Assembly: GCA_049890295.1 (NCBI GenBank)
Contig: JBMHBP010000012.1
Location: 9,983 to 73,982, forward strand
Length of the DNA stretch: 64,000 nucleotides
From: Flavobacteriales bacterium
GTDB taxonomy: Bacteria; Bacteroidota; Bacteroidia; Flavobacteriales; UBA7312
Direction: 5' to 3'
The notes below the pieces were generated by a model. That model had not been told where the DNA came from and did not search any database. It saw nothing but the letters and a program-made list of their open reading frames with translations. Shown here piece after piece: positions 5,991 through 58,056 of this stretch; within the stretch, counting starts at the first letter, position 1; each line of letters starts with the position of its first letter. Made by a program: the position numbers and the translations under genes.

Positions 5991-6022
5991 TTGTATAATT
6001 ATCTTTTTATACATCTATACAA
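5991..6022. promoter_or_regulatory. Palindromic operator candidate copy 1 (TTGTATA-N18-TATACAA)
   Basis: TTGTATA at 5991..5997 and TATACAA at 6016..6022 with an 18-nt spacer. Lies 29 nt upstream of the SRPBCC start (5962, minus strand). The right arm overlaps a minus-strand TATATTTG box (6027..6020). Same arms and spacing as copies at 7262 and 14149. Confidence 0.6.
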
Positions 6023-6157: not shown

Positions 6158-7039
6158 TTAATTGATAATGTCTATAAATTCATCAAGGTTTTCCATAACA
6201 ATTAGACTTTTTTCCTGTGTTAGAAAATTTATATCTAGTCCATTAGCTACTAAATAATGTTTGGCTGATGGAAAAGTTTTGTTTATATAATCCGTTGTAA
6301 AATCTAGATTACTTTTTGAAGTATTTGAAATGGAGAAAAACAAAACATTATCTACTCTTCTTTTTTCTGCTAGCTGTTGAAGTGATCCGTAAGGAATGTT
6401 ATTACCCAAATAGATGACTTCATAACCATGTTTAACAAGTAAAAATTTAGCAAACATTAATCCTATATCATGAAATTCATTTTCGGGTAAGAAAAGTAAC
6501 CAGCTTTCTTTACTGTTGATATTTAAACTAGCAGAGTCAGCAGCGGCGGACACCTTTTGCTTAACAAGTTCAGATAAGAAATGCTCTTGTGAAGGAGCAA
6601 TTCTATTAGTGAGCCAAAAAATACCGACCTTATTGAAAGCTATTAATAAAACGCTTTTATAGAATTCAATAATTCCCAATTCACGAACACCACTATCATA
6701 AGTCAAATGAAACAATTTAGAATCAAACTCTAGAGCTGATTCAATGAGTTTAGAAATATAGTAAGCCTCTTTGGATTTATTATCAGAACTGTTTTTTATA
6801 CTATCTACTTTCTGTCGTATTTCATCATCAGAAAGTTTTGAGACCACAGATATTTTGAGTCCGTTTTCAAGTAAATAATTACAGTTAAGAGCACGCACTA
6901 ATAAGTCATCAGTATAATAACGGATTTTAGTGTCAGTACGCTCGGCTTTTAAAAACCCATAACGATTTTCCCATGTTCTTAGTACAAACTTGGTAATTCC
7001 CGTTATCTGGGAAAATTGATCTATACTATACTTTGTCAT
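6158..7039 (-). CDS. carH: MerR-family transcriptional regulator with B12-binding domain, CarH/LitR-type AdoB12 photoreceptor
   Basis: 293 aa. MerR HTH (YSIDQFSQITGITKFVLRTWENRYGF). Wx9EH (WLTNRIAPSQEH, nt 6581..6616). ExHxxG (EFHDIG, nt 6461..6478), then SIS about 42 aa later and NG about 28 aa after that, which is the cobalamin-binding Rossmann signature. Confidence 0.85.
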   Translation of the reverse strand: MTKYSIDQFSQITGITKFVLRTWENRYGFLKAERTDTKIRYYTDDLLVRALNCNYLLENGLKISVVSKLSDDEIRQKVDSIKNSSDNKSKEAYYISKLIESALEFDSKLFHLTYDSGVRELGIIEFYKSVLLIAFNKVGIFWLTNRIAPSQEHFLSELVKQKVSAAADSASLNINSKESWLLFLPENEFHDIGLMFAKFLLVKHGYEVIYLGNNIPYGSLQQLAEKRRVDNVLFFSISNTSKSNLDFTTDYINKTFPSAKHYLVANGLDINFLTQEKSLIVMENLDEFIDIIN

Positions 7040-7261
7040 TTACAATATATTTTCCATTTGGAAACTTGTCAAGCCAAAAATCAAGATTGCTTAGAGACTT
7101 AAGATTTATTCTAATCTTGTCAGTATAAAAGACAATCTTTGGTGTTCTTTTCTTGATTTCCTCTATAGAAATTTTTTGCTTTTTCTTTCTAGGCATTGTT
7201 TACAAAAATTTGTTATTAGCATACACCATAGTCAGCTAATCTTAGTGCAAATATACACTTT

Positions 7262-7293
7262 TTGTATAATTATTATGTTATTTTTTTATACAA
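7262..7293. promoter_or_regulatory. Palindromic operator candidate copy 2 (TTGTATA-N18-TATACAA) in the carH / cupredoxin-FAS1 divergent region
   Basis: TTGTATA at 7262..7268 and TATACAA at 7287..7293 with an 18-nt spacer. Flanked by a minus-strand TATATTTG (7255..7248, toward carH) and a plus-strand TATATTTG (7321..7328, 22 nt before ATG 7350). Confidence 0.6.
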
Positions 7294-7349
7294 AACTTCA
7301 AATTTTTAACAAATACCTTGTATATTTGCATAAATTATTAATCAAAATT

Positions 7350-9098
7350 ATGAAAAAAGTTTATTTATTATTTTCATTGTTTTTCTTGACAATGACATTT
7401 TCTTTTGCTAGCAGCCATCAAATAAATGCTGGCGGATTTTACTACCAACCATCTTCGCTCACAGTCTCTATTGGTGATACTGTAGTTTGGGTAAACGATG
7501 GTGGAACTCATGATGTTAATGGTAATATCAATTCTCAAACGGGATCTAGCTTTAACAATCCTGAAAGTTTTAGTTCAGCCTCAACATCAGCACAAGGAGC
7601 AATCATTTATACTTACGTATTTACCATACCTGGCACATACAACTATGATTGCTCAGTTGGTAATCATGCAGCAATGGGCATGGTTGGAACAATTATAGTT
7701 GAGGATGAAACTACAGTTTTTGATTTAATTGCTAGCTCTGAAAACCACACAACATTAGAAACAGCATTATTAACTGCTGGTCTTGACGCTGCCCTAAACG
7801 GCGATGGACCATTCACTGTGTTTGCTCCTAGTGATGATGCCTTTGGCGAAATACCACAAGATGATTTAGATAATCTGTTAGCCAATGCTGCACAGCTAAA
7901 CGCTGTTTTATTACACCACGTTCATGCTGGCGAAATCTTAGCTCAAGATATTGTTACAATGAATGGTATGACAATTGAAACACTAAACCAAGATCAATTA
8001 TCTGTCACCATTGACGGCTCAACAGTAATGATTGATATGTCTACTGTTACTACACCTGACCTTATCGCCGATAACGGGGTAGTACATGTTGTTGATATGG
8101 TATTAATGCCAGAAACACTGACAACTGTATTCGATATCATAGCTGGTTCAGAAAACCACATGACTTTAGAAACGGCTATACTTGAAGCCGAGTTAGATGA
8201 TGCTTTAAACGGTATTGGACCTTTGACCGTATTTGCTCCCAGTGATGATGTGTTCAACAATCTTCCGGAAGGTACACTAACTACTTTATTAGCTAATACA
8301 AATCTTTTAACCACCATACTATTACATCATGTACATGCCGGAGAACTTCTTTCAGCTGACTTAGTTGGCATGGATGGTATGACTATTGAAACACTGAACG
8401 ATGATGAATTAACAATTACAATCGCTAATGATATTGTCAAAATTGACATGGCTACAGTAACAATTCCAGATCTTACGGCAATTAATGGTGTTGTTCATGT
8501 GATTGACATGGTACTGATGCCTGAAATTGATACCACCATAACTGTGATGGATATTGTGGATAATTCACCATCACATACAACACTAAAAACAGCTTTATAC
8601 GAAGCTGAATTAGATGATGACCTAAGAACAGAAGGTCCATTCACTGTGTTTGCACCAACTGACAGTGCATTCAATAGTTTACCTGCAGGTGCTTTAGACG
8701 ATTTATTAGATAATATCCCAGCACTTATAGAGGTATTACACCATCACGTTCATTCTGGAAACGCTATGGCTGATGACTTATCTAATGATATGATGATTCC
8801 TACCCTAAACAACGATAATTTAACTGTAACAATTGAGGGTAGTACAGTCATGATAGATATGGCAACTGTTGTATTAGCTGATTTAACAGCAGATAACGGC
8901 GTAGTACATGTTATTGATATGGTTCTTTTACCGGAATCAAATCCAACAGCAATAGATGAATTTATTTCAACCGACAAATTTTACTTATATACAATGAACA
9001 TTCTTGGCGAAAAAGTTAATAGAAATGCTAAAGACAAAATTCTTATTGACATATTTTCTGATGGTAGTTCAATCAAACGTTATAACTTGACTAAGTAA
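7350..9098 (+). CDS. Secreted cupredoxin (type-1 copper-like) domain + three fasciclin (FAS1) domains + short C-terminal T9SS-like tail
   Basis: The track ORF starts at TTG 7176. I place the start at ATG 7350 (MKKVYLLFSLFFLTMTFSFA signal peptide). Cupredoxin region has candidate Cu ligands H (GGTHDV), C (YDCSV), H (GNHAAM), M (GMVG). There are three ~137-aa FAS1 repeats (TVFAPSDDAF...NGVVHVIDMVL). The tail NILGEKV...ILIDIFSDGSSIKRY resembles a truncated Por sorting domain. Confidence 0.8.
   Translation: MKKVYLLFSLFFLTMTFSFASSHQINAGGFYYQPSSLTVSIGDTVVWVNDGGTHDVNGNINSQTGSSFNNPESFSSASTSAQGAIIYTYVFTIPGTYNYDCSVGNHAAMGMVGTIIVEDETTVFDLIASSENHTTLETALLTAGLDAALNGDGPFTVFAPSDDAFGEIPQDDLDNLLANAAQLNAVLLHHVHAGEILAQDIVTMNGMTIETLNQDQLSVTIDGSTVMIDMSTVTTPDLIADNGVVHVVDMVLMPETLTTVFDIIAGSENHMTLETAILEAELDDALNGIGPLTVFAPSDDVFNNLPEGTLTTLLANTNLLTTILLHHVHAGELLSADLVGMDGMTIETLNDDELTITIANDIVKIDMATVTIPDLTAINGVVHVIDMVLMPEIDTTITVMDIVDNSPSHTTLKTALYEAELDDDLRTEGPFTVFAPTDSAFNSLPAGALDDLLDNIPALIEVLHHHVHSGNAMADDLSNDMMIPTLNNDNLTVTIEGSTVMIDMATVVLADLTADNGVVHVIDMVLLPESNPTAIDEFISTDKFYLYTMNILGEKVNRNAKDKILIDIFSDGSSIKRYNLTK
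7713..8936 (+). repeat. Three tandem ~411-bp coding repeats (FAS1 domain units)
   Basis: Units at about 7713..8111, 8124..8522 and 8538..8936 share long blocks at both nucleotide and protein level (ENHTTLETA / ENHMTLETA / PSHTTLKTA; FTVFAPSDDAF; LLHHVHAG; DNGVVHVVDMVLMPE). Confidence 0.8.
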
Positions 9099-9123: not shown

Positions 9124-9150
9124 GGGGGAGTAATTACTCCCCCTTTTTTA
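9124..9150 (+). terminator. Rho-independent terminator after the cupredoxin-FAS1 gene
   Basis: GGGGGAGT-AATT-ACTCCCCC gives an 8-bp GC-rich stem (9124..9143) followed by TTTTTT (9144..9149). It ends 11 nt before the gpx ATG. Confidence 0.75.
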
Positions 9151-9159
9151 TATCCTATT

Positions 9160-9684
9160 ATGACTAAATACCTCCTTTTAATTATATCACTTTTAACTAT
9201 GAATACTACAATTTCTCAAACTTTTTACGACCTGTCTATCAAAGGTATTGACGGAGAAACTATCAATCTTTCTGATTACAAAGAACAAAATGTACTGATT
9301 GTAAATGTTGCCTCATTTTGTGGTTATACTTCCCAATACACTGAACTTCAAAAATTACACGACTCTTTCCCCAACTTAACCGTAATAGGCGTTCCATGTA
9401 ATCAATTTGGTTTTCAAGAGCCTGGCAATGCAAAGGAGATACAGAACTTTTGTCAAAGTAAGTATAGTATAGATTTTGTGCTCACTGAAAAAACAAAAGT
9501 TAAGGGAAAAGACAAGCATGAACTTTATAAATGGTTGACAGAAAAGAGTCTAAATGGTAAAGATGACTTTTCAGTGAGTTGGAATTTCAATAAATTCCTA
9601 GTCAATTCAGATGGCCAATTAGTAGATCATTTTGGTAGTGGAGTGTCTCCAATGGACAGTAAAATCACCAGTCAAATTAGGTAA
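9160..9684 (+). CDS. Glutathione peroxidase (Cys-type, BtuE-like), secreted/periplasmic
   Basis: 174 aa. Signal peptide, VASFCGYTSQY (peroxidatic Cys block), GVPCNQFGFQEPG, WNFNKFLV. These are canonical GPx family motifs. Confidence 0.9.
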   Translation: MTKYLLLIISLLTMNTTISQTFYDLSIKGIDGETINLSDYKEQNVLIVNVASFCGYTSQYTELQKLHDSFPNLTVIGVPCNQFGFQEPGNAKEIQNFCQSKYSIDFVLTEKTKVKGKDKHELYKWLTEKSLNGKDDFSVSWNFNKFLVNSDGQLVDHFGSGVSPMDSKITSQIR

Positions 9685-10241
9685 TGAAGAAGTTTCTGAT
9701 TGTATGTTTATCTATAATTTCGGTATTTACTATTTACGCTTTTAATGTGAGTTATGATACAAACTATACCGTAATTGAGACTATTGAATCTGTAGAAATT
9801 CGAGAATATCCAGAATCAATTTTTGCTAGCTATTATACAAATGGTTCAGGAAATAACTCTCAATTTAGAGTGCTTGCCAACTACATTTTTGGCGGAAACG
9901 ACCGTCAAGAACAAATTGGTATGACCTCTCCGGTGAATATGAAAATATCATCTGAGAATAATGAAATGTTATTCTTGATGCCTAATCGATACAATAAAAT
10001 CAATTTACCAAAACCTAATAACATCAATATCGACATAATTACCGTAGAAAAACGTAAAGTAGCTACTCTTCGGTTTTCAGGTTACTCCAATACTGATAAA
10101 GTTAATAAGAAAAAAGCTCAACTTATCGAGACTCTAAATAAACACAATATTAAACATACCAATGAGTATGAACTATTAATTTACGACTCACCATATAAGT
10201 TGCTGAACCGAAGAAATGAAGTATTAGTCGTACTACCATAA
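9684..10241 (+). CDS. SOUL heme-binding family protein
   Basis: 185 aa. YTVIETIESVEIREYPE, FRVLANYIFGGN, IGMTSPV, ATLRFSGY are SOUL/HBP family blocks. The start overlaps the gpx stop by 1 nt. Confidence 0.75.
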   Translation: MKKFLIVCLSIISVFTIYAFNVSYDTNYTVIETIESVEIREYPESIFASYYTNGSGNNSQFRVLANYIFGGNDRQEQIGMTSPVNMKISSENNEMLFLMPNRYNKINLPKPNNINIDIITVEKRKVATLRFSGYSNTDKVNKKKAQLIETLNKHNIKHTNEYELLIYDSPYKLLNRRNEVLVVLP

Positions 10242-14148: not shown

Positions 14149-14180
14149 TTGTATAATTTTGACAATGTAAATTTATACAA
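14149..14180. promoter_or_regulatory. Palindromic operator candidate copy 3 (TTGTATA-N18-TATACAA) in the SDR / PTPS-folE-crt divergent region
   Basis: TTGTATA at 14149..14155 and TATACAA at 14174..14180 with an 18-nt spacer, inside the 56-nt gap between ATG 14125 (minus) and ATG 14182 (plus). The left arm overlaps a plus-strand TAATTTTG box (14154..14161). A minus-strand TAGCTTTG box lies at 14141..14134. Confidence 0.6.
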
Positions 14181-47691: not shown

Positions 47692-50600
47692 TTATTGTGC
47701 TAACGTAAATCTAACACTAAAACCTCCATTAGTAACTGCTGATGGGAAACTGTTGGAGACATAAGGATTTGTCATTACTTTATCAAAGAATAATCTTAAG
47801 TTAAATCTACTACTTACAACATAATCAGCTGTAAATTTGAGTGACAAAACACTATTACCGCCAGTAATTTCTTCAACGTTTTCCTCAAGTTTACGAATCA
47901 CTACTTTGTTGGAACGTATGGAAAAATCAAGCTTAAGATCTAGATCTGAACTGATCTTTCTTTGTCTTCCGGCTGCTCTAACATTGAAAGCTAACTCCTT
48001 GATTCTATAGCCTGTACCTACCACTAATTCGTTTGAGGCCCTATCAGTAAGCTGATTATTACTCAAGCCTAAACTTAAGGTACGTTCTTTTTTGATTTCA
48101 AATCGTGCAGACAGACTATTTTTAAATGTCATATCTATTTTAAATAAGGGATTCAAACTCTCCCTTATTGAAACCTGATTGATTTCATATTTTTCATAAT
48201 AATTCAATGTAGCTTCGTTTATAGCTGTAGGCCACTGCTCAAAACCTTCTTCATAATCTAAGCTACTCACATAACTACCTACGCTGTAGGTCGATTTATA
48301 AGAGTGACTTAGAGTTATGGTATTTACACGCTTTTTTATCCAGCTAAGATTTCTTAAACCATCAAAGGTTATACGCCAATTTGGCAAAGGAATATTAGGA
48401 AATTTATTTAATCCTACAGTAGTGGGGCTTTTACCGGAGTAAGCAGCTATAAATGCAGGAATTAAGACCTCTTGAGAAGTGCTTTGATAGCCGAGTGGAT
48501 ATTGAGTACTATCAACAATAGAGTTGTCGTAAGGGTTTTGGATAGCTAATCGTTCAGCTATAATCTTTCTGTAATCTCTAAAGTTTTGGAAAGTTTGATT
48601 AGAATGATCATCAGAATCACCAATAAATGCTGTATTCCAGCTTATAAACGAAATACTATGACTACCATTTTCTATACTATTGAACGATGAATAATCACCA
48701 ACAAAATCATCGTATCTAAAGATTTCTTGAGTATTATTTGATTTTGAACGATTTGCAGTTAGCTCTATTCTAAAACCTTTGATGGGCTCTACTGTACTTC
48801 TTAAATTTATTGTTTCACTATTGGTCAGTCTAAAAAACTGGTTCAAACTAGAATTAGTGGTAATCCATCCTTCACGAGAACTTAATGATCTTATATCTAT
48901 ACTTTGACTACCTAAAGCAAATGGAATACCTGGTGCCATACTTTGCCAATCTTGACCAAAGAAATGTGGTTTTTTATTGAACCCAGGTAATACTATACCT
49001 TGATTTTGTCTGTACGAAATTGAGGCATTTTTTACCAACATGGTCATTCTCAAAATAGAGTTAGCTATTTTTTTAAAAGAAAATTTGACTGAATCTTGAA
49101 CCACTTCATTAGGTAATCTTATGTTTTCTCTACTCACACCTCTTTCTCTGCCTCGATTAGAATTGTTTTTATTCAATTTTTTTAGAAATGGAACTTTATT
49201 GTAAAGCTGAGTAAAATTAAGGGTTGTATTAATTTGTTTGTTATTACTGTTTTGGATAGTATTTCCTAGTTCTTGAACACTTAAAGGAGCTGCTAGCCAA
49301 TCATAATTGGCGGTATATTTAGTGTTCATATTAATCCATGAAGTTAATGGAAACTTATTCAAAGGCACATTATAACTAGCATTAACAGAATGATGATATA
49401 GGGTTGGACGACCAAAATTCAATATATTATTCCAAACAGAATCTCGTTTGGCTACATATAAAGGATCTGTTTTATCATATTCACCTAAAGGCTCGTCTAT
49501 ACTAGCTGAATTCCTGACCTTAAACTCTGTTTTTAGAGTCCGTGTTAAATCGTATTTAATACTGTAATTTCTATTCCATACAAATGATTTATTATAGTAT
49601 GGGGGCAGAATAAAGTTAGGATTATTTAGATTTCTGAATTGAGTTTTATTAAAGTATCTATCCAAATCGGTTTGGAAGCTTATGGACTTGGGTAAAACAT
49701 AAAAGTTGAAATCCTTGATGAGAGCAAAATATTTATTTCTAAACAGTTTTACTTTCCTAAATGGCTTGATGTTCTTAGGTTTTGCCGAGTAATTATAATT
49801 CAACGACAATTTAGAATTGACTGTTGTTCTTTCTTTTAAATTTACATTTTTTGAAAAGGTTTCATTTCTTGAATATGTGGCTGAAAAATTTTCTATATCA
49901 TACACTTTACTTTTTTTAGCAGCAGCGTTAGCTTTATTTTTTCTTACATTAGTAAAGTTAATCGATTTACGTTTTGTTAAATCCTGAGCAATTTCTTTAA
50001 GTTCTTCTTTTTCTTGTTGAGTTTGGAGTTCATCTAGTGAGGCTTTTAAAGTTATATCTGGATCTAAAGGATTAAACTGAGGGTTTTGAATAGCCTCCGA
50101 AACACCGACATACATAGGGATTTTTACCGCGGCTTTTTTTCCAAAGAAATTTCCAAGGGCAAATGAAGATGAAATATCATATTGGTAAGCATCGTGCTTT
50201 TGTCGTGCTGTTAGACTTTGATCTATACTTCCAAAGCCAATAGTACTCATACTACCAGTTACATTAACATTGGCAAAATCGGCTAATCGGGCATTAAGTC
50301 TTGCATTAGCCGCGTAGCCGCCTTGCTCATCGAAGTCGGTCAATCGCAATTCGTTTAGCCACACTTCACCACACTTTGGGGTACCATCGTCGGTGCTGCT
50401 AGAGTTTGCTGTGCCCTTTTTAGGATTCCTAAGTCCTAACATAATGGTTTTAACCTGACTCAAATTAGGATTACCCACTACTGTTATTTGAGAATTGGTA
50501 CCACTAAAAGGGTCTGTAGTACTAGAATGAGACCCCTCTCGAACAGCTTGATTACGTTGGCGTTTGGTATTAAGTAATTCTTCAAATGTGATATCGAGTT

Positions 50601-53600
50601 CATTAGCGATTGGCCATATCAAGTCCTCATCTAATTTTGACACGCCCCATGGAGTTACCTTTAGTGGTATTTCATACTCATAGAAGTTGTCATTAAAGTC
50701 AGTCCCCAAGCGAATAAATAGTGATAAATCATCATCAGATAGGGTCAACTCATCATCTCCTGAAGCCTCGGCATGAACATACATTTTTAGTCGTTTGTAG
50801 GTTCGGAAATCATTGTTAAATGTTTTGTAGGCAGCACGTGAGTCACCATCTTCAAGTTCACAAACTTTTAATACTAATGACTGTTCGTTTTGACGTCTAG
50901 CATAAGTGGTTGTATTGTCAACTTCTTGAACAATTCCAGGTGGTAAAACATAAGGAATTGGTACTTTCTCACCGTTTTCTTCAATATTTACTACTGAAAC
51001 ATCAAATGAAGTGTTAGTGGCGTTATCATTTGGAACATACTCGCCCTCAGCCTTCAAATCAAAATTATATCTACGCCACTCTCCCCTTACTAATTCTAGC
51101 GTTGCAAATCGTAAAACTACAGCTTGCTCAAAGTCCTTCAAAATCATACGCATAAAACGAATGGACTTGAAATCTCGAATTGATCCAACAATTTTATCAG
51201 CTTGTTGAACCGGTACTTTAAATTGATACCATTTGATTGGCCTATCGCCCTGAGCAGTATTGGCGTTAGTTTCTTGAATATCCGTGACATAACTCTCTCC
51301 TACCTGCATATTAGGATAGATAGGTATACTATAATGGTAATAACTTTCAGATTCGTTTAAGGTATTATCAAAGTTAATATCTTCCGTATTTGGAATAGTG
51401 GTTGACATAGTAGGTATGGGATCAGGGATAGCTGAATTTCCATCTACTCCAGAAAAATATTTATAACGATTGATAATTGAAGCACTTTGATCGTCCAAGT
51501 CATCACCTAAAAAGTATCTGTAATTATCTGAAGATGGATCGTCAATAGCAAGAGCGTAGGCTTGACTATTAGTTCCATAAATATCACCTATCTTTTGAAT
51601 ATAAGCCGTATCGAAAAAAGCTTGCTCATCGATATCTCGAAGACCATCCAAACCAACATCTTGAAACTCTCTTGAGGCTGCATCAACATCAAATGAATTA
51701 GTTAATGCAAAATTTGTGGGCATTCTACCCCACACACTACTGGTGTCATCAACATTTTCCAGTACTGCTGATGATGGTAAACCGTTCTCAAAACTTTTAA
51801 AACCGTCTTTTAAAACATCTTCTGAAATATTACCAAGATTTAAAATCAGTGTTCCACCACTTTGGTTTTCAGAATCGTCATGAAAAGGGTCCATCATCCA
51901 AAATTCAATAAACTCAATATTTTGAGTTTCAAAGTCGGTAGTTTCCAATTTCCGCATGATACCAGACCACCTGTCACCAGGGTTTAGTAAGTTACCTGAA
52001 GTGGTAATATTTTGTGTGTCAAAATTATAAGGTCCACGTTCTGTTGGATTGTAATATAGGTTAAGTACAGGTAGATTTGAAACTTGTGTAGCGTACTCTG
52101 GATCTTTATTAGGGAAAACCTCTTTTTCTAGAACTTCTCTAACATTATGATTAGATAATTGATTATTATCATTAGCAATGTGTGCCGGTGTAGTGCTAGT
52201 GTTTCTATAAAAAGTAGGATCAATATTATACCATGACAATAGGCCTCTGTTAGCTCCCGAATTGAGGTTGCCTAGCCTTGGAGATTGATTGGCTAAGGCT
52301 GACTCTGGAAATAAATTAGGATCATTGGGTAAACTAGCTAAAAACCACGCCCCAGGATTTTTAATATCCACGCCGATACTACTGGCCTCAAAATCATCTA
52401 TGTAAGCGTTTCCAGACTCGCCTATTACTCTTGGATGACCAGGAATAAGGTGAGCAAACTCACCCTGTGCCGTAAACATGGATTTCTCTTTTGTTTCTAG
52501 AAAAGGCAAAAAGTCTACAATTTTTGTCAACAGACTTGATTCACGTCTATAGGTACCGTCCAATCCCCAAATGGTATTTGAAATGGGCTCATCACCAGTG
52601 TTAACTTTTCTGGTGTAAGGTTTTTCAGTTAAGTTTAGAATAGTTCCTCCAAGCAAGAAATCATCTGAAATACGGTAATCGACATGTGTACCAACTAGGG
52701 TTTTTCGTTGTAGTCCTAATGAATTACTTTCCACTGAAATACGTATTGGCGTACCTGACAATAAAATACCTTCGTTGATGATGTTCACCTTACCCATTGA
52801 GTAATTAACCGTAAAGTCTTTTCCTTCTTCAAGTCGTAAACCACCGGCTGTAACTACTACTGATCCTTGTTCAATTGAAAAAACACCTAAATATATTTCA
52901 GCACCAGATTCTGATTGATAACTACCTTTAATTCTGAACTTATTAAACTCAGGGAACTGTTGGGCGATGGTAATGGTTGAATCGTACAATTCATCATAGA
53001 CATATTGATTAGCAATATCTGTATTTTCAAAAGTGTTTCTCAAATCTTCCCCAAATGGCTCTAAAACAGGGAATATAATTTTACCATTTGAAGTAATGAT
53101 ATTTATGCCTGGCAAGAAATCAAAAATTCCATCTGAGCGATTGTTCTGTTGGGCATCCAATTGATCAAGTTTTAATAGTTTGATAATTGGCGTATTAAAA
53201 AACCCTTCTTCTGGAATGTAGTTGGTAATCGTTCCATTATCTCGAGTGTTTTCAAAGACAACATCAAGATAAAACTCTTTGGAACTAATGTTGTAAGCCC
53301 CTAGGGAATAGATATTTTTCATCATCAAATCCCAGTTTGGCAGTTGGGGGGAAAAGCTTAAGTTTTTTAATAACTTAACATATAATGAACTGGGTGCTGA
53401 GGGACCGTTAGAAGTAAATTCTCCAACTTGATAGGTCTCACTACCTATGGTATACTGATAGGCTACGGCCAAAACTTCATCAGGGCCAATTACACTGTTC
53501 AACGATATATAGCCCAACTGAGGATGAAAGGTGTATTCGGTAGGGTTCAACAATCGTGCCCTTTCCAATTTTTCGTAATCTTGTGATCCTAAAAAATTGG

Positions 53601-54837
53601 GGTAGTTGGTAGAGTTGAACACACTATTAACTTGATTTATATTTCTTAGGTTCGGACCCTCAGCAAGCATTTGCTGATACAGGGTATTGTTATCATTATC
53701 AGGGTAAGATAAATCTGGATTATCAGAGAAAAGAATAGTGTTATACATTTTCTCTTGTGACTCTCCTAAATCTAAAAAAGCTAATATGTTTCGATTATTT
53801 TCTACAGTCCCTGTTTTATTCGTTACCCAAACCTCAATTTTTGTAATATTTACAGGCGAGTTGATAAAAGGTAAATTAGACATCGCCTCGTTATATTTTG
53901 ATCTAAAATAATGTGAGATGAAAAAGTGCTTGTTACTTTCGTATTGATCAGCATAAATATCGTACTCTGTAGTTTGAGCACCTCCTTCAACGTCAATAAC
54001 CTTTGAATTACTTTTTTGCTCCGAGAAAATGGTAGTTACTGTAGCACGACCAAATTGCAATTGTGTTTTAAGTCCTAATAGACTTTGACTACCATTAATC
54101 AAGGTGCCGTTTAGAGGTAGGCCTACATTACCGATTTCAATTTTTTTAATAATTTCATCTTCTTCGCCTTCATATTCCAGCTTTATTTTGTTGTCAAAAT
54201 CAAATATTGCCTCAGTGTTATAGTTGGTATTCAGCTGAAGTTTATCCCCAATTTTTCCAATAACATTCATTTGAATTTTTTGCTTGAAATCAAAGCTAGT
54301 ATTAGCCTGTCTATCTAGCGGAAGAGCATTGTTTTGTGTTTTGTTGTGTTTAACGGAAAAAATCAGTTCCGCCGATCCTTGAGGGCGTATGTCGACCGTA
54401 CTATTACCAAAAATTCGATCGAAAACCTCTCCTCCAATATCTATACTTAAAGGTCCTTTATTTTGATTTTCAGCGTTTAGTGAAGGGCTAGATATTTTTT
54501 CTTTCCAGTATTCTAATATTGAATTATTGACATTATAATTGTCATATTCTTCAAAGGTCAAAAAAGAAGGGTTGCTTAATCTGAAACCATTGTTTGTTTG
54601 TTCAACACTGTAAAGTTTACTTTCAGGATCGTATTCAATAGTTGGCTTCAAAAAGCTTGGGTTAGCTAAGTAAAAACCACTAGAGGGTTGTTCTAGAGGA
54701 GACGACCAATTTTCTGTAACTGGAATATCAACTTGCAGACTATTATTTTCAGACTGGGCAAAAGTACATTTTGCTAGTGCTAAAAACAACAAAAAGCACC
54801 AAGGTGCCAGAAATACATTGATACGGTTTTGAATCAA
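47692..54837 (-). CDS. sprA: T9SS outer-membrane translocon / gliding motility protein SprA (Sov)
   Basis: 2381 aa, a giant beta-barrel protein with a signal peptide. Size, composition and the conserved ruvA-sprA-gcvH neighbourhood are characteristic of SprA in Flavobacteriia. Confidence 0.9.
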   Translation of the reverse strand: MIQNRINVFLAPWCFLLFLALAKCTFAQSENNSLQVDIPVTENWSSPLEQPSSGFYLANPSFLKPTIEYDPESKLYSVEQTNNGFRLSNPSFLTFEEYDNYNVNNSILEYWKEKISSPSLNAENQNKGPLSIDIGGEVFDRIFGNSTVDIRPQGSAELIFSVKHNKTQNNALPLDRQANTSFDFKQKIQMNVIGKIGDKLQLNTNYNTEAIFDFDNKIKLEYEGEEDEIIKKIEIGNVGLPLNGTLINGSQSLLGLKTQLQFGRATVTTIFSEQKSNSKVIDVEGGAQTTEYDIYADQYESNKHFFISHYFRSKYNEAMSNLPFINSPVNITKIEVWVTNKTGTVENNRNILAFLDLGESQEKMYNTILFSDNPDLSYPDNDNNTLYQQMLAEGPNLRNINQVNSVFNSTNYPNFLGSQDYEKLERARLLNPTEYTFHPQLGYISLNSVIGPDEVLAVAYQYTIGSETYQVGEFTSNGPSAPSSLYVKLLKNLSFSPQLPNWDLMMKNIYSLGAYNISSKEFYLDVVFENTRDNGTITNYIPEEGFFNTPIIKLLKLDQLDAQQNNRSDGIFDFLPGINIITSNGKIIFPVLEPFGEDLRNTFENTDIANQYVYDELYDSTITIAQQFPEFNKFRIKGSYQSESGAEIYLGVFSIEQGSVVVTAGGLRLEEGKDFTVNYSMGKVNIINEGILLSGTPIRISVESNSLGLQRKTLVGTHVDYRISDDFLLGGTILNLTEKPYTRKVNTGDEPISNTIWGLDGTYRRESSLLTKIVDFLPFLETKEKSMFTAQGEFAHLIPGHPRVIGESGNAYIDDFEASSIGVDIKNPGAWFLASLPNDPNLFPESALANQSPRLGNLNSGANRGLLSWYNIDPTFYRNTSTTPAHIANDNNQLSNHNVREVLEKEVFPNKDPEYATQVSNLPVLNLYYNPTERGPYNFDTQNITTSGNLLNPGDRWSGIMRKLETTDFETQNIEFIEFWMMDPFHDDSENQSGGTLILNLGNISEDVLKDGFKSFENGLPSSAVLENVDDTSSVWGRMPTNFALTNSFDVDAASREFQDVGLDGLRDIDEQAFFDTAYIQKIGDIYGTNSQAYALAIDDPSSDNYRYFLGDDLDDQSASIINRYKYFSGVDGNSAIPDPIPTMSTTIPNTEDINFDNTLNESESYYHYSIPIYPNMQVGESYVTDIQETNANTAQGDRPIKWYQFKVPVQQADKIVGSIRDFKSIRFMRMILKDFEQAVVLRFATLELVRGEWRRYNFDLKAEGEYVPNDNATNTSFDVSVVNIEENGEKVPIPYVLPPGIVQEVDNTTTYARRQNEQSLVLKVCELEDGDSRAAYKTFNNDFRTYKRLKMYVHAEASGDDELTLSDDDLSLFIRLGTDFNDNFYEYEIPLKVTPWGVSKLDEDLIWPIANELDITFEELLNTKRQRNQAVREGSHSSTTDPFSGTNSQITVVGNPNLSQVKTIMLGLRNPKKGTANSSSTDDGTPKCGEVWLNELRLTDFDEQGGYAANARLNARLADFANVNVTGSMSTIGFGSIDQSLTARQKHDAYQYDISSSFALGNFFGKKAAVKIPMYVGVSEAIQNPQFNPLDPDITLKASLDELQTQQEKEELKEIAQDLTKRKSINFTNVRKNKANAAAKKSKVYDIENFSATYSRNETFSKNVNLKERTTVNSKLSLNYNYSAKPKNIKPFRKVKLFRNKYFALIKDFNFYVLPKSISFQTDLDRYFNKTQFRNLNNPNFILPPYYNKSFVWNRNYSIKYDLTRTLKTEFKVRNSASIDEPLGEYDKTDPLYVAKRDSVWNNILNFGRPTLYHHSVNASYNVPLNKFPLTSWINMNTKYTANYDWLAAPLSVQELGNTIQNSNNKQINTTLNFTQLYNKVPFLKKLNKNNSNRGRERGVSRENIRLPNEVVQDSVKFSFKKIANSILRMTMLVKNASISYRQNQGIVLPGFNKKPHFFGQDWQSMAPGIPFALGSQSIDIRSLSSREGWITTNSSLNQFFRLTNSETINLRSTVEPIKGFRIELTANRSKSNNTQEIFRYDDFVGDYSSFNSIENGSHSISFISWNTAFIGDSDDHSNQTFQNFRDYRKIIAERLAIQNPYDNSIVDSTQYPLGYQSTSQEVLIPAFIAAYSGKSPTTVGLNKFPNIPLPNWRITFDGLRNLSWIKKRVNTITLSHSYKSTYSVGSYVSSLDYEEGFEQWPTAINEATLNYYEKYEINQVSIRESLNPLFKIDMTFKNSLSARFEIKKERTLSLGLSNNQLTDRASNELVVGTGYRIKELAFNVRAAGRQRKISSDLDLKLDFSIRSNKVVIRKLEENVEEITGGNSVLSLKFTADYVVSSRFNLRLFFDKVMTNPYVSNSFPSAVTNGGFSVRFTLAQ

Positions 54838-55593: not shown

Positions 55594-56304
55594 TTATCGA
55601 TTAATAACTAAACGTTTAATTTCGGTCAGTTGTCCATCTACATAAATATTAGCGAAGTACAAACCATTGGGCGTGTTACTAACGTCAAACTTTAACTTAC
55701 CTTCTTGGTTTTTTAGATGTTTAATTTTAACCACATTCCCCAGCATATCGGTCACTACAATTTTTGCCAAAGTATAGTTACTGGCAAAGGCGTAGTCTAT
55801 ACTAGTCAATGAGGTAGTTGGGTTAGGATGAAAATTTGAAAATGTGCCAGAGGTTTTGGATTCAATCGAAGATGTCACAACTGAATAATTGACGATAGCA
55901 CAGGCTGAATCGGTAGGATTATCAGCATCAAACGCACAATATTTTATGGAAGCATAAGCAGGATCAACACCTTGATTATCAAAATGAACTTGAAAACTAC
56001 TTACATCAACTTGCTGAGGGCTGAATGATTTAGGTTCGGGTGAAACGCTAATATTTGCTGGATAACAGGCGGTCCAACAAAAATAATTTCTAGTACCTTG
56101 AGTAGCAGAAATAAGCTGTCTAGAAACTTTGATATCTATTGTTTCATTAGAAACGTTTTGAATAGTAATCTCTGTTCCTAAATCACCTAAAATTGATGTA
56201 GAATTACTTTCGTTAACATTATTTTCATGAGGCTCAACGGTAATACTCTGAGCAAACAACTGACCACATGACAATAAAAGTGAGAATAGTACAAGGTGTT
56301 TCAT
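55594..56304 (-). CDS. Hypothetical secreted protein with T9SS type-A C-terminal sorting domain
   Basis: 236 aa. Signal peptide. The last ~80 aa, FHPNPTTSLTSIDY...VVTDMLGNVV...PNGLYFANIYVDGQ...KRLVI, match the Por_Secre_tail (TIGR04183) pattern. Confidence 0.7.
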   Translation of the reverse strand: MKHLVLFSLLLSCGQLFAQSITVEPHENNVNESNSTSILGDLGTEITIQNVSNETIDIKVSRQLISATQGTRNYFCWTACYPANISVSPEPKSFSPQQVDVSSFQVHFDNQGVDPAYASIKYCAFDADNPTDSACAIVNYSVVTSSIESKTSGTFSNFHPNPTTSLTSIDYAFASNYTLAKIVVTDMLGNVVKIKHLKNQEGKLKFDVSNTPNGLYFANIYVDGQLTEIKRLVINR

Positions 56305-56478
56305 AGTCCAAATGTTTTAACAAAGATAATAAAGATATGCGTTAATTAGAGTTTTAACTTATTAAATTTGAGGGGTTTGAACGCGTAAGAAATTAAAATA
56401 TTAATCTTTGAAAACGGACAAAATTGAATTCTTTATTTTTATCTTGGTAGACGTAAAATCTTAAAACCTCTATTTAAA

Positions 56479-58005
56479 ATGATAAAAGCTTCCCTTATTA
56501 TTACTCTAATTTTAAGTTCAATTATGGTCAAAGCTCAACTTCCTAACGGCAGTTTTGGACCTAATTTTACAGTTTCCGATATCAATGGCAACACCCATAC
56601 TTTATATGACATTCTCGATAGCGGCTACACGGTTGTAATGGATTTGAATGCCACTTGGTGCCAGCCCTGTTGGAATTATCACCAAGGTGGTGAACTAGAG
56701 ACCTTGTGGGAAGAACATGGACCTGCGGGTTGGCCAGGTGTCAGTGAAAACACAACTGATGATGTATTTGTTTTTATGATAGAGTCCGATAACTCAACTG
56801 GAATGAGTCATTTAGATGGTACCGCCGTTAGCTATACATATGGCGATTGGATTACTGGTACAAGTTTTCCTATTGTAGATGATTACAGCGTTTCTCAAGC
56901 TTACGAACTTAGCTATTATCCTACAGTCTTCACAGTATGTCCTAACAGAAGAATAACCGAATCTGGTGCCCTATCAGCGTCAAATCATTATAACACCGTT
57001 GGTCAATGTATTGATGCACAAGAAGGAAAAAATATAGCCATTTATGATTACTTAGGAGAAACTACTACCTGCGATACCGAAGTACATGTAAAAGCTAATT
57101 TTCAAAATATGGGAACTCAGGCAATTAGTGACTTTACAGCCGAAATATTTGAAGGTACTACCTTGTTGGGCTCACAACAATACAACGGTAATCCTATTGA
57201 GCAATATAGCGTTGTAGAATTAGATTTTGGCACTATCAATGTTAGTGGTTTCAATGCCAATATTCAATTAAAAACACTAACGGCCGATGATATGTTGGAA
57301 AGCGATAATTCATTAAGTCAAACCATTGAAAAAGCTAGCATAGGTACCGAAACTATGAATTTGAAAATTACTACCGATAATTTTGGTTCTCAGGTAAGTT
57401 GGAAAATCAAAAATGATCAGGACAGCGTAGTCGCTAGCGGAGGGCCCTATTCCAATTCATCCAATACTACAACATACGAACCCATTGTTCAAGACGATGA
57501 GGACATAAGCTTTTCAACTAGTGGTTGTTATTATTTTGAGGTTTATGATAGTCAAAACAATGGCATGTACAACAGCCCTGCTCACGACGACGGCCCTACT
57601 TTTTTTAGATTAATAAGTAATGGAATAAATGTTGTTGAAATTTTTGGTGATGATTATACCAATACTACTAAACAGAAGTTCATCTATAATTCATCAGCAT
57701 CAATGGACGAAAAGTGGAAAGTAGTAAAAACTTCCGTTTATCCTAACCCTACATCTGGAATGAGTCACTTAAAGCTAGTTAGTAAAGAAGAAATGAAAGG
57801 GGTAGAGCTTTGCATTTTCAACCTACTTGGTGAAGAGATGTCAAAGCAAACCATAAATTTCAACACTGGCGAAAATACCATTCCATTAAATTTAAATGGC
57901 TATAAGGATGGTATCTATAATATTAAACTAGAGTCGTCTAAGTTAAACATATCGCACAAACTACTTCTTTTAAATCAACAATCTTCTTTTTTTACTAAAA
58001 AATAA
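56479..58005 (+). CDS. T9SS-targeted thioredoxin-fold protein (WCQPCW), paralog 1
   Basis: 508 aa. Signal peptide; redoxin-like N-domain with NATWCQPCW (Cys codons 56659..56661 and 56668..56670) and a cis-Pro loop YYPTVF; beta-sandwich middle modules; C-terminal VYPNPTSG...FNLLGEE...DGIYNIKL sorting domain. Confidence 0.75.
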   Translation: MIKASLIITLILSSIMVKAQLPNGSFGPNFTVSDINGNTHTLYDILDSGYTVVMDLNATWCQPCWNYHQGGELETLWEEHGPAGWPGVSENTTDDVFVFMIESDNSTGMSHLDGTAVSYTYGDWITGTSFPIVDDYSVSQAYELSYYPTVFTVCPNRRITESGALSASNHYNTVGQCIDAQEGKNIAIYDYLGETTTCDTEVHVKANFQNMGTQAISDFTAEIFEGTTLLGSQQYNGNPIEQYSVVELDFGTINVSGFNANIQLKTLTADDMLESDNSLSQTIEKASIGTETMNLKITTDNFGSQVSWKIKNDQDSVVASGGPYSNSSNTTTYEPIVQDDEDISFSTSGCYYFEVYDSQNNGMYNSPAHDDGPTFFRLISNGINVVEIFGDDYTNTTKQKFIYNSSASMDEKWKVVKTSVYPNPTSGMSHLKLVSKEEMKGVELCIFNLLGEEMSKQTINFNTGENTIPLNLNGYKDGIYNIKLESSKLNISHKLLLLNQQSSFFTKK

Positions 58006-58056
58006 TTATAATTTAAAGAAATGATTAAATTTGTAAACAACTTTAAAAATACTATT

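What the first reader, a model, noticed from the sequence alone, without database searches (positions are those of the whole stretch)
7350..9098. Unusual fusion: type-1-copper cupredoxin + three tandem FAS1 adhesion domains + T9SS-like tail, placed directly under the putative light operator
The mature protein starts with a ~95-aa plastocyanin-like domain with a plausible T1Cu ligand set (H in GGTHDV, C in YDCSV, H in GNHAAM, M in GMVG). Three recently duplicated ~137-aa fasciclin repeats follow (nt 7713..8936, long identical blocks), then a short Por-sorting-like tail. Cupredoxins are electron carriers and FAS1 domains are cell-surface adhesion or matrix modules. I do not recognise this combination on one secreted polypeptide as a described architecture. 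Its promoter shares operator copy 2 with carH, suggesting light-dependent display of a redox-active copper protein at the cell surface.
Basis: partly seen in the sequence, partly recalled or inferred. Interest (0 to 1): 0.6.

Follow-up and report, generated by a model that had tools for sequence, protein, structure and literature searches.

The report
Light-controlled secreted blue-copper fasciclin protein
An uncultured marine flavobacterium encodes an exported protein that joins a blue-copper electron-transfer domain to three fasciclin domains, and its promoter carries the same conserved operator as the vitamin-B12 light sensor CarH and the carotenoid genes, so it is probably made in the light; the family is widespread in ocean Flavobacteriales but nobody has studied it.

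Summary
The ORF is real (7350..9098, 582 aa). It has a Sec signal peptide and a cupredoxin domain with all four type-1 copper ligands (H54, C101, H106, M111), which are invariant across the family. The AF2 model of that domain (pLDDT 94) matches pseudoazurin and plastocyanin. Three canonical FAS1 domains and a conserved ~50-aa tail follow.

- The FAS1 repeats are old (59-66% aa, 61-65% nt identity; longest exact run 17 nt), not recent.
- The tail matches no T9SS CTD model. However, it replaces the canonical type-A CTD found on paralogues, and it occurs on unrelated exported proteins. SprA is in the window. It is a probable but unproven sorting signal.
- The architecture is not rare. There were 245 loci in marine Flavobacteriales MAGs. 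NCBI calls it "fasciclin domain-containing protein". I found no paper on it.

The light link is well supported. The palindrome TGTATA-N18-TATACA occurs three times in the window: upstream of carH and this gene, upstream of an SRPBCC/flavin-reductase operon, and upstream of a pterin/carotenoid operon. In 854 kb of window plus related loci it occurs 48 times at N18 and never at spacings 11-17 or 19-25. It follows this gene even where carH is elsewhere. CarH keeps the Wx9EH and B12 motifs.

The molecular function is unknown. Verdict: a new variant of known kinds, of moderate interest.

The parts
7350..7409 (+). Sec (SPI-type) signal peptide, residues 1-20 (MKKVYLLFSLFFLTMTFSFA|SS)
   Evidence: Read from the sequence. 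An equivalent n/h/c region is present in orthologues, and the mature N-terminus starts at cupredoxin strand 1. The cleavage site is inferred, not predicted by a tool.
7410..7703 (+). Cupredoxin (type-1 copper) domain, residues ~21-118. Ligands are H54, C101, H106 and M111; the loop is C-X4-H-X4-M.
   Evidence: Pfam PF00127, 40.5 bits. phmmer against PDB plastocyanin gives E 2.5e-8 with the ligands aligned. The ligands are invariant. AF2 pLDDT 93.9, with Foldseek hits to pseudoazurin and plastocyanin at TM ~0.7.
7710..8120 (+). FAS1 domain 1
   Evidence: Pfam PF02469. phmmer against PDB matches TGFBIp, periostin and Rhodobacter Fdp.
8121..8534 (+). FAS1 domain 2
   Evidence: Pfam PF02469. 66% aa identity to domain 1.
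8535..8939 (+). FAS1 domain 3
   Evidence: Pfam PF02469, best stretch 408-528. 59% aa identity to domain 1.
8940..9098 (+). Conserved ~50-aa C-terminal tail (consensus Y.Y.iNlLGe.V.r....ilIDIysnG.s.KRyNl.K) plus the stop codon. Probable C-terminal sorting module; not a recognised T9SS CTD.
   Evidence: Conserved, with invariant G, D, G and K. No Pfam or NCBIfam hit. hhalign against type-A CTDs gives 1.3%. It replaces the canonical CTD of paralogues and occurs on unrelated exported proteins.
9124..9150 (+). Intrinsic terminator after the gene (8-bp G+C-rich stem, 4-nt loop, T run)
   Evidence: Terminator scan. A hairpin plus T run sits at the same position with a different sequence in L001-L006, L011 and L012.
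7263..7292 (.). Palindromic operator TGTATA-N18-TATACA (two inverted TnnACA half-sites), lying between the divergent promoters
   Evidence: Three sites in the window against 0.19 expected. 48 hits at N18 and none at N11-17 or N19-25 in 854 kb. Present upstream of this gene in 14 of 17 complete short-tail orthologues and in 0 of 33 CTD-bearing paralogues.
7321..7328 (+). Putative Bacteroidota -7 promoter box (TATATTTG, consensus TAnnTTTG) for this gene. The mirror-image box for the minus-strand transcript is at 7246-7253.
   Evidence: Read from the sequence. Conserved in the orthologous intergenic regions. The consensus is from my own knowledge of Bacteroidota promoters, so this is an inference.
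7026..7196 (-). Conserved 56-aa small ORF upstream of carH, overlapping it by 14 nt
   Evidence: Conserved protein with synonymous DNA changes in eight loci. No Pfam hit.
6158..7039 (-). carH-like gene: MerR HTH (RTWENRY), Wx9EH at residue 142, ExHxxG at residue 188
   Evidence: Pfam MerR_1 passes its cut-off; B12-binding and B12-binding_2 match below theirs. The best NCBIfam hit is TransRegCarH at 79 bits, below the cut-off. Motifs are conserved in 15 orthologues. Motif definitions come from PMC9304148.
5992..6021 (.). Second copy of the operator, upstream of the SRPBCC / flavin-reductase-like operon (5962 downwards, -)
   Evidence: The same position is occupied in L001-L006, L011 and L012.
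14150..14179 (.). Third copy of the operator, immediately upstream of PTPS-folE-crtI-crtB-(153 aa)-Nudix-crtZ
   Evidence: The same position is occupied in L001-L004 and L006.

Best explanation
The gene encodes an exported protein with two modules. A type-1 (blue) copper cupredoxin head sits on a stalk of three FAS1 domains, and the protein ends in a short conserved tail that probably acts as a sorting signal.

Proposed regulation:
1. In the dark, an adenosyl-B12-loaded CarH oligomer binds the palindrome TGTATA-N18-TATACA. This site lies between the divergent promoters of (small ORF + carH) and this gene, and binding represses both.
2. Light destroys the cofactor, CarH leaves the DNA, and the gene is transcribed.
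3. The same operator controls two other operons: an SRPBCC/flavin-reductase operon and a pterin + carotenoid (crtI, crtB, crtZ) operon.
4. A conserved terminator ends the transcript, so downstream genes are read only by read-through. These are a glutathione peroxidase, a SOUL haem-binding protein, Fpg/Nei and a Nudix hydrolase.

Proposed export and role:
- The product crosses the inner membrane by Sec.
- It is probably handed to the type IX secretion system (SprA is in the window) through the short tail.
- In the envelope or at the surface, the copper domain carries out one-electron chemistry as part of the light / photo-oxidative-stress response. The FAS1 array serves as spacer, adhesion or hydrophobic-ligand module.

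Shown here: the domains, the ligands, the fold, conservation of the operator and its linkage to carH and crt genes, the CarH motifs, the terminator, and the portability of the tail.

Inferred: copper binding, light induction, T9SS dependence, surface location and the redox role.
For: - Domains and ligands.
- Synteny carH <> CuFAS-GPx-SOUL-Fpg-Nudix is identical in L001-L006, L011 and L012. carH is also divergent and adjacent in L008, L009, L021 and L057.
- Operator: three sites in the window against 0.19 expected. 48 hits at N18 and none at N11-17 or N19-25 in 854 kb.
- The operator is present upstream of the gene, or of GPx plus the gene, where no carH lies within 6 kb (L007, L016, L019; L010 and L013 run off the contig).
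- The operator also precedes carH where carH is 4 kb away (L015, L042).
- The half-site TATACA equals the TnnACA core of characterised CarH repeats (PMC9304148).
- CarH motifs RTWENRY, Wx9EH, ExHxxG and SxT are conserved.
- The third operator precedes crtI, crtB and crtZ, the classic CarH target.
- The terminator is conserved in position.
- Tail: canonical CTD in 33 paralogues against the short tail in 17 orthologues. The operator accompanies only the short-tail group (14 against 0).
- The short tail also occurs on an esterase-like protein and other exported proteins.
- SprA and canonical CTD cargo are in the window.
- Precedents for light or photo-oxidative induction of FAS1 proteins: PMC9897461 and PMC10147662.
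Against: - No expression, secretion or copper data exist.
- The tail fails every profile test for a T9SS CTD. It is only ~40-50 aa, whereas the canonical CTDs aligned here (A4) span ~85 aa. AF2 does not model it with confidence.
- The operator is an inverted pair, not the tandem 11-bp direct repeats of characterised CarH proteins. CarH binding to it is therefore assumed.
- CarH scores far below the NCBIfam equivalog cut-off (79 against 400).
- No electron donor or acceptor for a surface cupredoxin is known in Bacteroidota.
- Three short-tail orthologues lack the exact palindrome (L014, L017, L020).
Confidence: 0.55

Rival explanations
1. It is a periplasmic electron carrier. The protein is exported by Sec but stays in the periplasm, where the cupredoxin shuttles electrons as pseudoazurin or plastocyanin do. 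The FAS1 domains and the tail would be docking or oligomerisation modules, not a secretion signal.
For: The closest solved relatives are soluble periplasmic or lumenal carriers. The tail matches no T9SS CTD model. The two genes immediately downstream (GPx and SOUL) begin with hydrophobic, signal-peptide-like N-termini (read), which would fit a periplasmic stress module.
Against: Paralogues with the same cupredoxin(+FAS1) architecture carry canonical type-A CTDs, so the module is normally T9SS cargo. The short tail is portable between unrelated exported proteins, as sorting signals are. Multi-FAS1 proteins in these bacteria usually end in PF18962.
Confidence: 0.2
2. It is an AstaP-like photoprotective carotenoprotein. 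The FAS1 domains would bind the cell's own xanthophyll (zeaxanthin, from the co-regulated crtI, crtB and crtZ genes) and hold it in the envelope as a light filter or singlet-oxygen quencher. The copper domain would be an accessory.
For: FAS1 can bind carotenoids in a hydrophobic tunnel lined by residues conserved across FAS1 generally, and AstaP is induced by photo-oxidative stress (PMC10147662). This gene shares its operator with the carotenoid operon. AstaP structures are detectable relatives (8c18, E 3.8e-6).
Against: The repeats are much closer to adhesion-type FAS1 proteins (TGFBIp, E 1e-56) than to AstaP. Carotenoid binding is described as a green-algal neofunctionalisation, and a cyanobacterial homologue did not bind. 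I did not map the determinant positions. This idea does not explain the invariant copper site.
Confidence: 0.1
3. It is an adhesin or matrix protein and the light link is incidental. The palindrome would serve carH autoregulation or another transcription factor, and the gene would simply sit beside carH. In that case the protein is one more FAS1 surface adhesin with a copper-binding or structural head.
For: Multi-FAS1 T9SS proteins are very common in marine Bacteroidota and are usually read as adhesins (PMC2668756). The operator differs from known CarH operators in geometry.
Against: The operator stays with the gene when carH is not adjacent (L007, L016, L019). It is absent from all 33 CTD-bearing paralogues. 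In L008, L009, L021 and L057 two operators lie between carH and the gene; one overlaps a -7-like box and the other lies in the leader. The other two sites in the window precede carotenoid and photo-stress genes.
Confidence: 0.12

Closest known systems
Plastocyanin / pseudoazurin / amicyanin (single-domain type-1 copper cupredoxins, Pfam PF00127)
   Same: The fold matches (Foldseek TM 0.64-0.74). The His-Cys-His-Met ligand set is aligned. The size is ~100 aa.
   Different: The ligand loop is C-X4-H-X4-M rather than the C-X2-H-X4-M seen in the aligned Synechocystis plastocyanin. It is fused to FAS1 domains and a sorting tail. It scores far below the NCBIfam equivalog cut-offs (plastocyanin 38 against 87.9; pseudoazurin 28 against 110). 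It belongs to a large Flavobacteriales subfamily used as a module on many exported proteins, including arrays of up to 12 copies.
Multi-FAS1 surface proteins (TGFBIp, periostin, Rhodobacter Fdp; Bacteroidota FAS1 + PF18962 proteins)
   Same: Canonical FAS1 repeats in tandem. Secreted. Repeat number varies between orthologues, from 1 to 5 by motif count; L020 shows six on reading its sequence.
   Different: It has an N-terminal copper domain, a short non-canonical tail in place of PF18962, and lies under the CarH-type operator.
Photo-oxidative or light-induced FAS1 proteins: AstaP of Scenedesmaceae, the fasciclin gene next to the xanthorhodopsin operon of Sphingomonas glacialis, and the Azospirillum brasilense fasciclin-domain protein
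   Same: A FAS1 protein whose expression is tied to light or photo-oxidative stress and to carotenoid genes.
   Different: Those are single-FAS1 proteins without a cupredoxin and under other regulators (LOV-type, RpoE-type). Carotenoid binding has been shown only for AstaP.
CarH/LitR adenosyl-B12 photoreceptor regulons (Thermus thermophilus, Bacillus megaterium, Myxococcales)
   Same: A MerR DNA-binding domain with an RxWExRY-like helix, Wx9EH, and the B12 His motif. It is autoregulated and linked to carotenoid genes. The operator half-site is TnnACA, and the operator overlaps promoter elements.
   Different: The operator is an inverted pair with a fixed 18-bp spacer, not 3-4 tandem 11-bp direct repeats. 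The regulon includes an exported copper/FAS1 protein, pterin genes and SRPBCC/flavin-reductase genes. A 56-aa ORF is translationally coupled to carH.
T9SS type-A C-terminal domain (TIGR04183 / PF18962)
   Same: C-terminal position on Sec-exported proteins of a T9SS-bearing organism. Rich in beta-strand-type residues, with a basic C-terminus. Interchangeable with the canonical CTD on the same cargo architecture.
   Different: It is about half the length and lacks the 'PNP' N-terminal motif. No HMM or HMM-HMM similarity is detectable.

Membership tests
Cupredoxin, type-1 copper (Pfam PF00127 Copper-bind) | Profile match above the curated cut-off | tested here: met
   40.5 bits against a gathering score of 21.2 for the whole protein; 43.5 bits for the N-domain alone.
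Cupredoxin, type-1 copper (Pfam PF00127 Copper-bind) | His, Cys, His and Met ligands at the homologous positions | tested here: met
   H54, C101, H106 and M111 align with the plastocyanin ligands. They are invariant in the family.
Cupredoxin, type-1 copper (Pfam PF00127 Copper-bind) | Greek-key beta-sandwich fold | tested here: met
   AF2 pLDDT 93.9 and pTM 0.85. Foldseek probability 1.0 to pseudoazurin, plastocyanin and amicyanin. Ligand geometry could not be measured because the tool returns no coordinates.
Cupredoxin, type-1 copper (Pfam PF00127 Copper-bind) | Binds copper, with a ~600 nm charge-transfer band and a small A-parallel EPR signal | not testable with these tools
   Needs a recombinant N-domain.
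Plastocyanin / pseudoazurin proper (NCBIfam equivalogs TIGR02656, TIGR02375) | Score above the equivalog cut-off | tested here: not met
   38.2 against 87.85, and 27.8 against 109.85. It is a cupredoxin but not a member of these named carriers.
FAS1 / fasciclin (Pfam PF02469) | Profile match above the cut-off, per domain | tested here: met
   Three stretches, 311.6 bits in total. Full-length alignment to TGFBIp FAS1 domains.
T9SS type-A C-terminal sorting domain (PF18962 / TIGR04183) | Profile match of the C-terminal residues | tested here: not met
   No hit at E<=10 in Pfam or NCBIfam. My own HMM of 26 canonical CTDs does not hit it at E<0.01. hhalign probability 1.3%.
T9SS type-A C-terminal sorting domain (PF18962 / TIGR04183) | C-terminal module on Sec-exported cargo in an organism with T9SS machinery | tested here: met
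   A signal peptide is present. SprA_N at E 1e-188 on 47692..54837. Canonical CTD proteins at 55594-59607.
T9SS type-A C-terminal sorting domain (PF18962 / TIGR04183) | Secretion depends on the tail and on T9SS | not testable with these tools
   Indirect evidence only: the tail replaces the CTD on paralogous architectures and occurs on unrelated cargo.
CarH (AdoB12-dependent photoreceptor repressor) | MerR-type DNA-binding domain with an RxWERRY-like recognition helix | tested here: met
   Pfam MerR_1, 52 bits. RTWENRY at residue 21, conserved in 15 orthologues.
CarH (AdoB12-dependent photoreceptor repressor) | Wx9EH motif together with D/ExHxxG...SxT/V B12-binding motif (PMC9304148) | tested here: met
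   WLTNRIAPSQEH at residue 142, EFHDIG at 188, then SNT. The Pfam B12-binding domains match only below their cut-offs.
CarH (AdoB12-dependent photoreceptor repressor) | NCBIfam equivalog NF052513 above its cut-off | tested here: not met
   79.2 bits against 400. It is a distant member of the family, not an equivalog of the modelled CarH.
CarH (AdoB12-dependent photoreceptor repressor) | Operator of three or four tandem 11-bp direct repeats nnnnTnnACAn | tested here: not met
   The conserved element is two TnnACA (TATACA) half-sites in inverted orientation, 18 bp apart. The total span of ~32 bp is similar to three repeats.
CarH (AdoB12-dependent photoreceptor repressor) | Light-dependent and B12-dependent release from DNA | not testable with these tools
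   Needs EMSA in dark and light, or transcript measurements.
AstaP-type carotenoid-binding FAS1 | Closer to AstaP than to generic FAS1, with the AstaP-specific tunnel-exit residues | tested here: inconclusive
   AstaP (8c18) scores E 3.8e-6 against TGFBIp at E 1e-56. I did not map the determinant positions (56, 57, 111, 138 of AstaPo1) because I had no AstaP sequence to align.

The most novel reading that the evidence does not exclude
Open-ocean Flavobacteriales would use a B12/CarH light switch to send to the envelope or cell surface a device with two functions. A FAS1 array would be loaded with the co-induced xanthophyll, as in AstaP. A blue-copper centre would take or give single electrons to photochemically produced oxidants. 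Export would go through a previously unrecognised minimal (~40 aa) type IX sorting signal, distinct from type-A and type-B CTDs.
Probability: 0.1. Interest if true: 0.8.

Novelty: new variant of a known kind. Interest (0 to 1): 0.55.

Why it matters
Heterotrophic marine Flavobacteriales are major consumers of algal carbon in sunlit water, yet their light responses beyond rhodopsins and photolyases are poorly mapped.

This locus gives a compact, testable CarH regulon. It has a sharply defined operator (TGTATA-N18-TATACA) that can be used to predict light-regulated genes in hundreds of uncultured genomes.

Its most conspicuous member is an exported blue-copper/FAS1 protein of unknown role. If light induction and secretion are confirmed, that would add an extracytoplasmic redox component to the bacterial photo-oxidative stress response. 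It would extend CarH operator architecture from direct to inverted repeats. It would also define a short portable sorting tail that current T9SS cargo predictors miss.

Tried and rejected
- Full-length AF2 with 25 orthologues gave mean pLDDT 55.5, with the N-domain and tail below 50. It was not usable. I replaced it with an N-domain model.
- A profile search with the tail alignment in the 5.8-billion-protein collection returned only 18 short fragments and not even the known full-length proteins. It says nothing about cargo diversity. I searched the fetched loci with my own HMMs instead.
- hhalign of the tail against canonical CTDs found no relationship.
- TRF found no DNA tandem repeat in the FAS1 region, so I rejected the recent-duplication idea.
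- The outer TATACA/TGTATA motifs at 7252 and 7320 looked like extra half-sites. They are not conserved in L002-L006, where only the -7 boxes are, so I read them as promoter elements.
- Literature searches for cupredoxin + fasciclin, fasciclin + plastocyanin + Flavobacteria, and T9SS + cupredoxin found nothing on this architecture. The co-mentions are lists of plant cell-wall proteins.
- I found no paper describing a CarH operator in Flavobacteria.
- I rejected membership of plastocyanin or pseudoazurin proper on the NCBIfam cut-offs.
Full report
**1. What is there**

The ORF starts at ATG 7350 and ends at 9098, giving 582 aa. The list of ORFs shows a longer TTG-initiated frame from 7176. Its N-terminal extension is simply the translated promoter region. 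The same artefact appears in some database gene calls, such as 'MQIYTFCIT...'.

- Pfam finds Copper-bind PF00127 at residues 23-118 (40.5 bits against a cut-off of 21.2). It finds three Fasciclin PF02469 domains at E 4e-94.
- NCBIfam gives only sub-threshold hits to plastocyanin, halocyanin and pseudoazurin. This is a cupredoxin but not one of the named carriers.
- The N-terminus (MKKVYLLFSLFFLTMTFSFA|SS) is a typical Sec signal. The mature chain begins at cupredoxin strand 1.

**2. The copper site**

- phmmer against PDB sequences aligns the domain with Synechocystis plastocyanin at E 2.5e-8. H54, C101, H106 and M111 fall on the four ligands.
- The ligand loop is C-X4-H-X4-M.
- All four residues are invariant in 25 full-length orthologues and in 27 diverse N-domains.
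- An AF2 model of residues 21-124 is confident (pLDDT 93.9, pTM 0.85).
- Its best solved neighbours are pseudoazurin, plastocyanin and amicyanin (TM 0.64-0.74, probability 1.0).
- Copper binding itself is inferred. I could not inspect ligand geometry because the tool returns no coordinates.

**3. The FAS1 repeats**

- They are canonical and align end to end with the FAS1 domains of TGFBIp, periostin and Rhodobacter Fdp.
- They are 59-66% identical to each other in protein and 61-65% in DNA, with a longest exact run of 17 nt. TRF reports nothing.
- Copy number varies from 1 to 5 among orthologues by motif count. Reading the L020 sequence shows six repeats. So the array is evolutionarily plastic.

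**4. The tail**

- The last ~50 residues are conserved across the family. The consensus is Y.Y.iNlLGe.V.r....ilIDIysnG.s.KRyNl.K, with invariant G, D, G and K.
- They match no Pfam or NCBIfam model at E<=10.
- An HMM I built from 26 canonical type-A CTDs does not hit them.
- hhalign between the two alignments gives 1.3% probability over 11 columns.
- On profile evidence, then, this is not a type-A CTD.

Three observations still point to a sorting role:

- Paralogous proteins with the same cupredoxin (+FAS1) architecture end in a canonical CTD, for example L022, L029 and L035.
- The short tail also closes unrelated signal-peptide proteins. These are an alpha/beta-hydrolase-like protein in L068, two other proteins in L065 and L063, and a cupredoxin + Cys-rich protein in L060.
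- The window encodes the T9SS translocon SprA (SprA_N, E 1e-188) and three proteins with canonical CTDs next to it.

I treat T9SS dependence as plausible, at roughly even odds. It is not shown.

**5. How common it is**

- The full-length search found dozens of 90%-identity clusters with PF00127 + PF02469. They fall at 57-72% identity and ~580 aa, with longer versions up to ~1000 aa.
- Scanning one genome per species with the N-domain found 245 loci. All 80 that were listed come from uncultured aquatic, mostly marine, Flavobacteriales/Bacteroidota MAGs and single-cell genomes.
- A 96%-identical protein is in NCBI as 'fasciclin domain-containing protein' (MGC6471224.1). Relatives occur in Tara Oceans assemblies.
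- The cupredoxin module has 128 50%-identity clusters at E<=1e-30 and 1023 at E<=1e-10. It is used alone with a CTD, on giant multidomain proteins, and in tandem arrays of up to 12 copies.
- The architecture is therefore common in its lineage and already sits in databases. I found no paper about it.

**6. Regulation**

Gene order:

- The upstream divergent gene (6158..7039) is CarH-like. It has a MerR HTH and sub-threshold B12-binding domains. It carries RTWENRY, Wx9EH (residue 142), EFHDIG (188) and SNT. These are the motifs that define AdoB12-dependent CarH (PMC9304148), and they are conserved in 15 orthologues.
- Between carH and this gene lies a conserved 56-aa ORF (7026..7196, -) that overlaps carH by 14 nt. 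The true intergenic region is therefore 7197-7349.

The operator in the window:

- That intergenic region holds TGTATA-N18-TATACA at 7263-7292.
- It is flanked by mirror-image Bacteroidota -7-like boxes: CAAATATA at 7246-7253 for the minus strand and TATATTTG at 7321-7328 for this gene.
- The same palindrome occurs at 5992-6021, upstream of an SRPBCC protein and two flavin-reductase-like genes.
- It occurs again at 14150-14179, directly upstream of PTPS-folE-crtI-crtB-(153 aa)-Nudix-crtZ.
- That makes three N18 sites in 64 kb. The N15-30 pattern is expected 0.19 times by chance and matched four times; the fourth match has a 28-bp spacer.

The operator across related loci:

- Across the window and the 80 loci (854 kb), spacing N18 occurs 48 times. 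Spacings N11-17 and N19-25 never occur.
- The gene order FlavRed-FlavRed-SRPBCC-carH <> CuFAS-GPx-SOUL-Fpg-Nudix is identical in L001-L006, L011 and L012.
- carH is also divergent and adjacent in the more distant L008, L009, L021 and L057. There, two operators lie between carH and the gene. One overlaps a -7-like box (TTATACATTTG) and the other lies in the leader.
- The operator is kept upstream of the gene, or of GPx plus the gene, where no carH lies within 6 kb (L007, L016, L019). L010 and L013 run off their contigs, so carH there cannot be excluded.
- The operator also precedes carH where carH lies 4 kb away (L015, L042).
- Among complete ORFs, short tail with operator = 14 and short tail without = 3. 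Canonical CTD with operator = 0 and without = 33.
- The CarH-linked genes and the short-tail genes are therefore one subfamily, distinct from the CTD-bearing paralogues.
- In L014, L017 and L025 the neighbour is a 219-aa MerR (RSWEERY) without the B12 motifs. It resembles class-II LitR, and the exact palindrome is absent.

Relation to known CarH operators:

- The half-site TATACA is the TnnACA core of characterised CarH repeats. Those repeats are tandem and direct, and this pair is inverted.
- I conclude that the gene belongs to a CarH-type light regulon (about 0.75). The caveat is that CarH binding to this palindrome is inferred.

**7. Transcript end and neighbours**

- A G+C-rich hairpin with a T run follows the stop codon (9124-9150).
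- A hairpin plus T run sits at the same place, with different sequence, in all eight syntenic loci. The terminator is therefore functional and conserved.
- The GPx start lies ~10 nt after the T run, so the downstream genes can be reached only by read-through or from a promoter inside this gene. These are GPx, SOUL, Fpg/Nei and Nudix.
- The products fit a photo-oxidative-stress module. They comprise two further proteins with signal-peptide-like N-termini (GPx, SOUL) and two DNA/nucleotide-sanitising enzymes.

**8. Mechanism and rivals**

- Best-supported reading: dark repression by AdoB12-CarH at the palindrome, then light induction. Sec export follows, then probable T9SS sorting through the short tail. 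The protein would then do one-electron copper chemistry in the envelope or at the surface during light stress, with the FAS1 array as spacer, adhesion or ligand module.
- Rivals: a periplasmic carrier (0.2); an AstaP-like carotenoprotein (0.1); an ordinary adhesin with an incidental operator (0.12).
- Precedent for the carotenoprotein idea: FAS1 can hold carotenoids and AstaP is photo-stress-induced.
- Precedent for light-induced FAS1: a fasciclin gene is light-induced beside a xanthorhodopsin operon in Sphingomonas glacialis. That paper also cites an Azospirillum fasciclin protein linked to photo-oxidative stress.
- Against the carotenoprotein idea: the repeats here are far closer to adhesion-type FAS1 than to AstaP, and a cyanobacterial homologue did not bind carotenoid.

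**9. Verdict**

- The object is a new variant built from known kinds. These are a cupredoxin, FAS1 domains and a CarH regulon, together with a non-canonical sorting tail and a non-canonical operator geometry.
- Interest is moderate (0.55). The regulon and the tail are directly testable and useful for annotating uncultured ocean Flavobacteriales. The protein's molecular role remains open.

Noticed in passing
window 7026..7196 (-): A conserved 56-aa ORF (MPRKKKQKISIEEIKKRTPKIVFYTDKIRINLKSLSNLDFWLDKFPNGKYIVNDKV) lies upstream of carH and overlaps its start by 14 nt. It is conserved with synonymous changes in eight syntenic loci and has no Pfam hit. It could be a CarH partner or antirepressor.
   Followed up: partly
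window 5992-6021, 7263-7292, 14150-14179: Three copies of TGTATA-N18-TATACA define a putative CarH regulon. Its members are SRPBCC + two flavin-reductase-like genes; small ORF-carH / cupredoxin-FAS1; and PTPS-folE-crtI-crtB-(153 aa, no Pfam hit)-Nudix-crtZ. The inverted geometry differs from the tandem direct repeats of characterised CarH operators.
   Followed up: yes
window 9124-9150 (+): A strong intrinsic terminator sits directly after the gene and only ~10 nt before the glutathione-peroxidase start codon. Its position, but not its sequence, is conserved in L001-L006, L011 and L012. This implies attenuated read-through into GPx-SOUL-Fpg-Nudix.
   Followed up: partly
window 47692..54837 (-) and 55594-59607: A SprA (T9SS translocon, 2381 aa) gene is followed by three genes whose products end in canonical type-A CTDs. 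The organism therefore uses the standard signal as well as the short tail.
   Followed up: partly
L068 1228-2259, L065 3541-4992, L063 3334-4293 (-), L060 1214-2176: The short ~40-aa tail (…iLGr…f.i.IY.DG…K…) also ends unrelated signal-peptide proteins. These include an alpha/beta-hydrolase-like protein and a cupredoxin + Cys-rich protein. It is a candidate unrecognised C-terminal sorting signal of marine Flavobacteriales.
   Followed up: partly
proteins P0143, P0147, P0265, P0269; loci L056, L064, L078, L072, L080: The same cupredoxin module occurs in tandem arrays (9 copies in 1452 aa; 12 in 3670 aa). It also occurs on giant multidomain T9SS cargo and, as a ~200-aa protein, alone with a CTD. 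Secreted blue-copper modules appear to be a general feature of these bacteria.
   Followed up: no
L014 629-1288, L017 124-783, L025 4584-5243: In three more distant genomes the regulator next to the cupredoxin-FAS1 gene is a 219-aa MerR (RSWEERY helix) lacking Wx9EH and the B12 motif. It resembles class-II LitR, and the exact palindrome is absent.
   Followed up: no
window 7614-7616 (residue 89): Residue 89 is Tyr here (IYTYVF) but His in the 96%-identical protein and in nearly all orthologues (IYTHVF). Some paralogues also have Tyr. Its significance for the copper site or electron path is unknown.
   Followed up: no
window 9160..10241 (+): The glutathione-peroxidase and SOUL haem-binding homologues downstream both begin with hydrophobic, signal-peptide-like N-termini. 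An exported GPx/SOUL pair travels with the cupredoxin-FAS1 gene in several arrangements (L007, L015, L016, L042).
   Followed up: no
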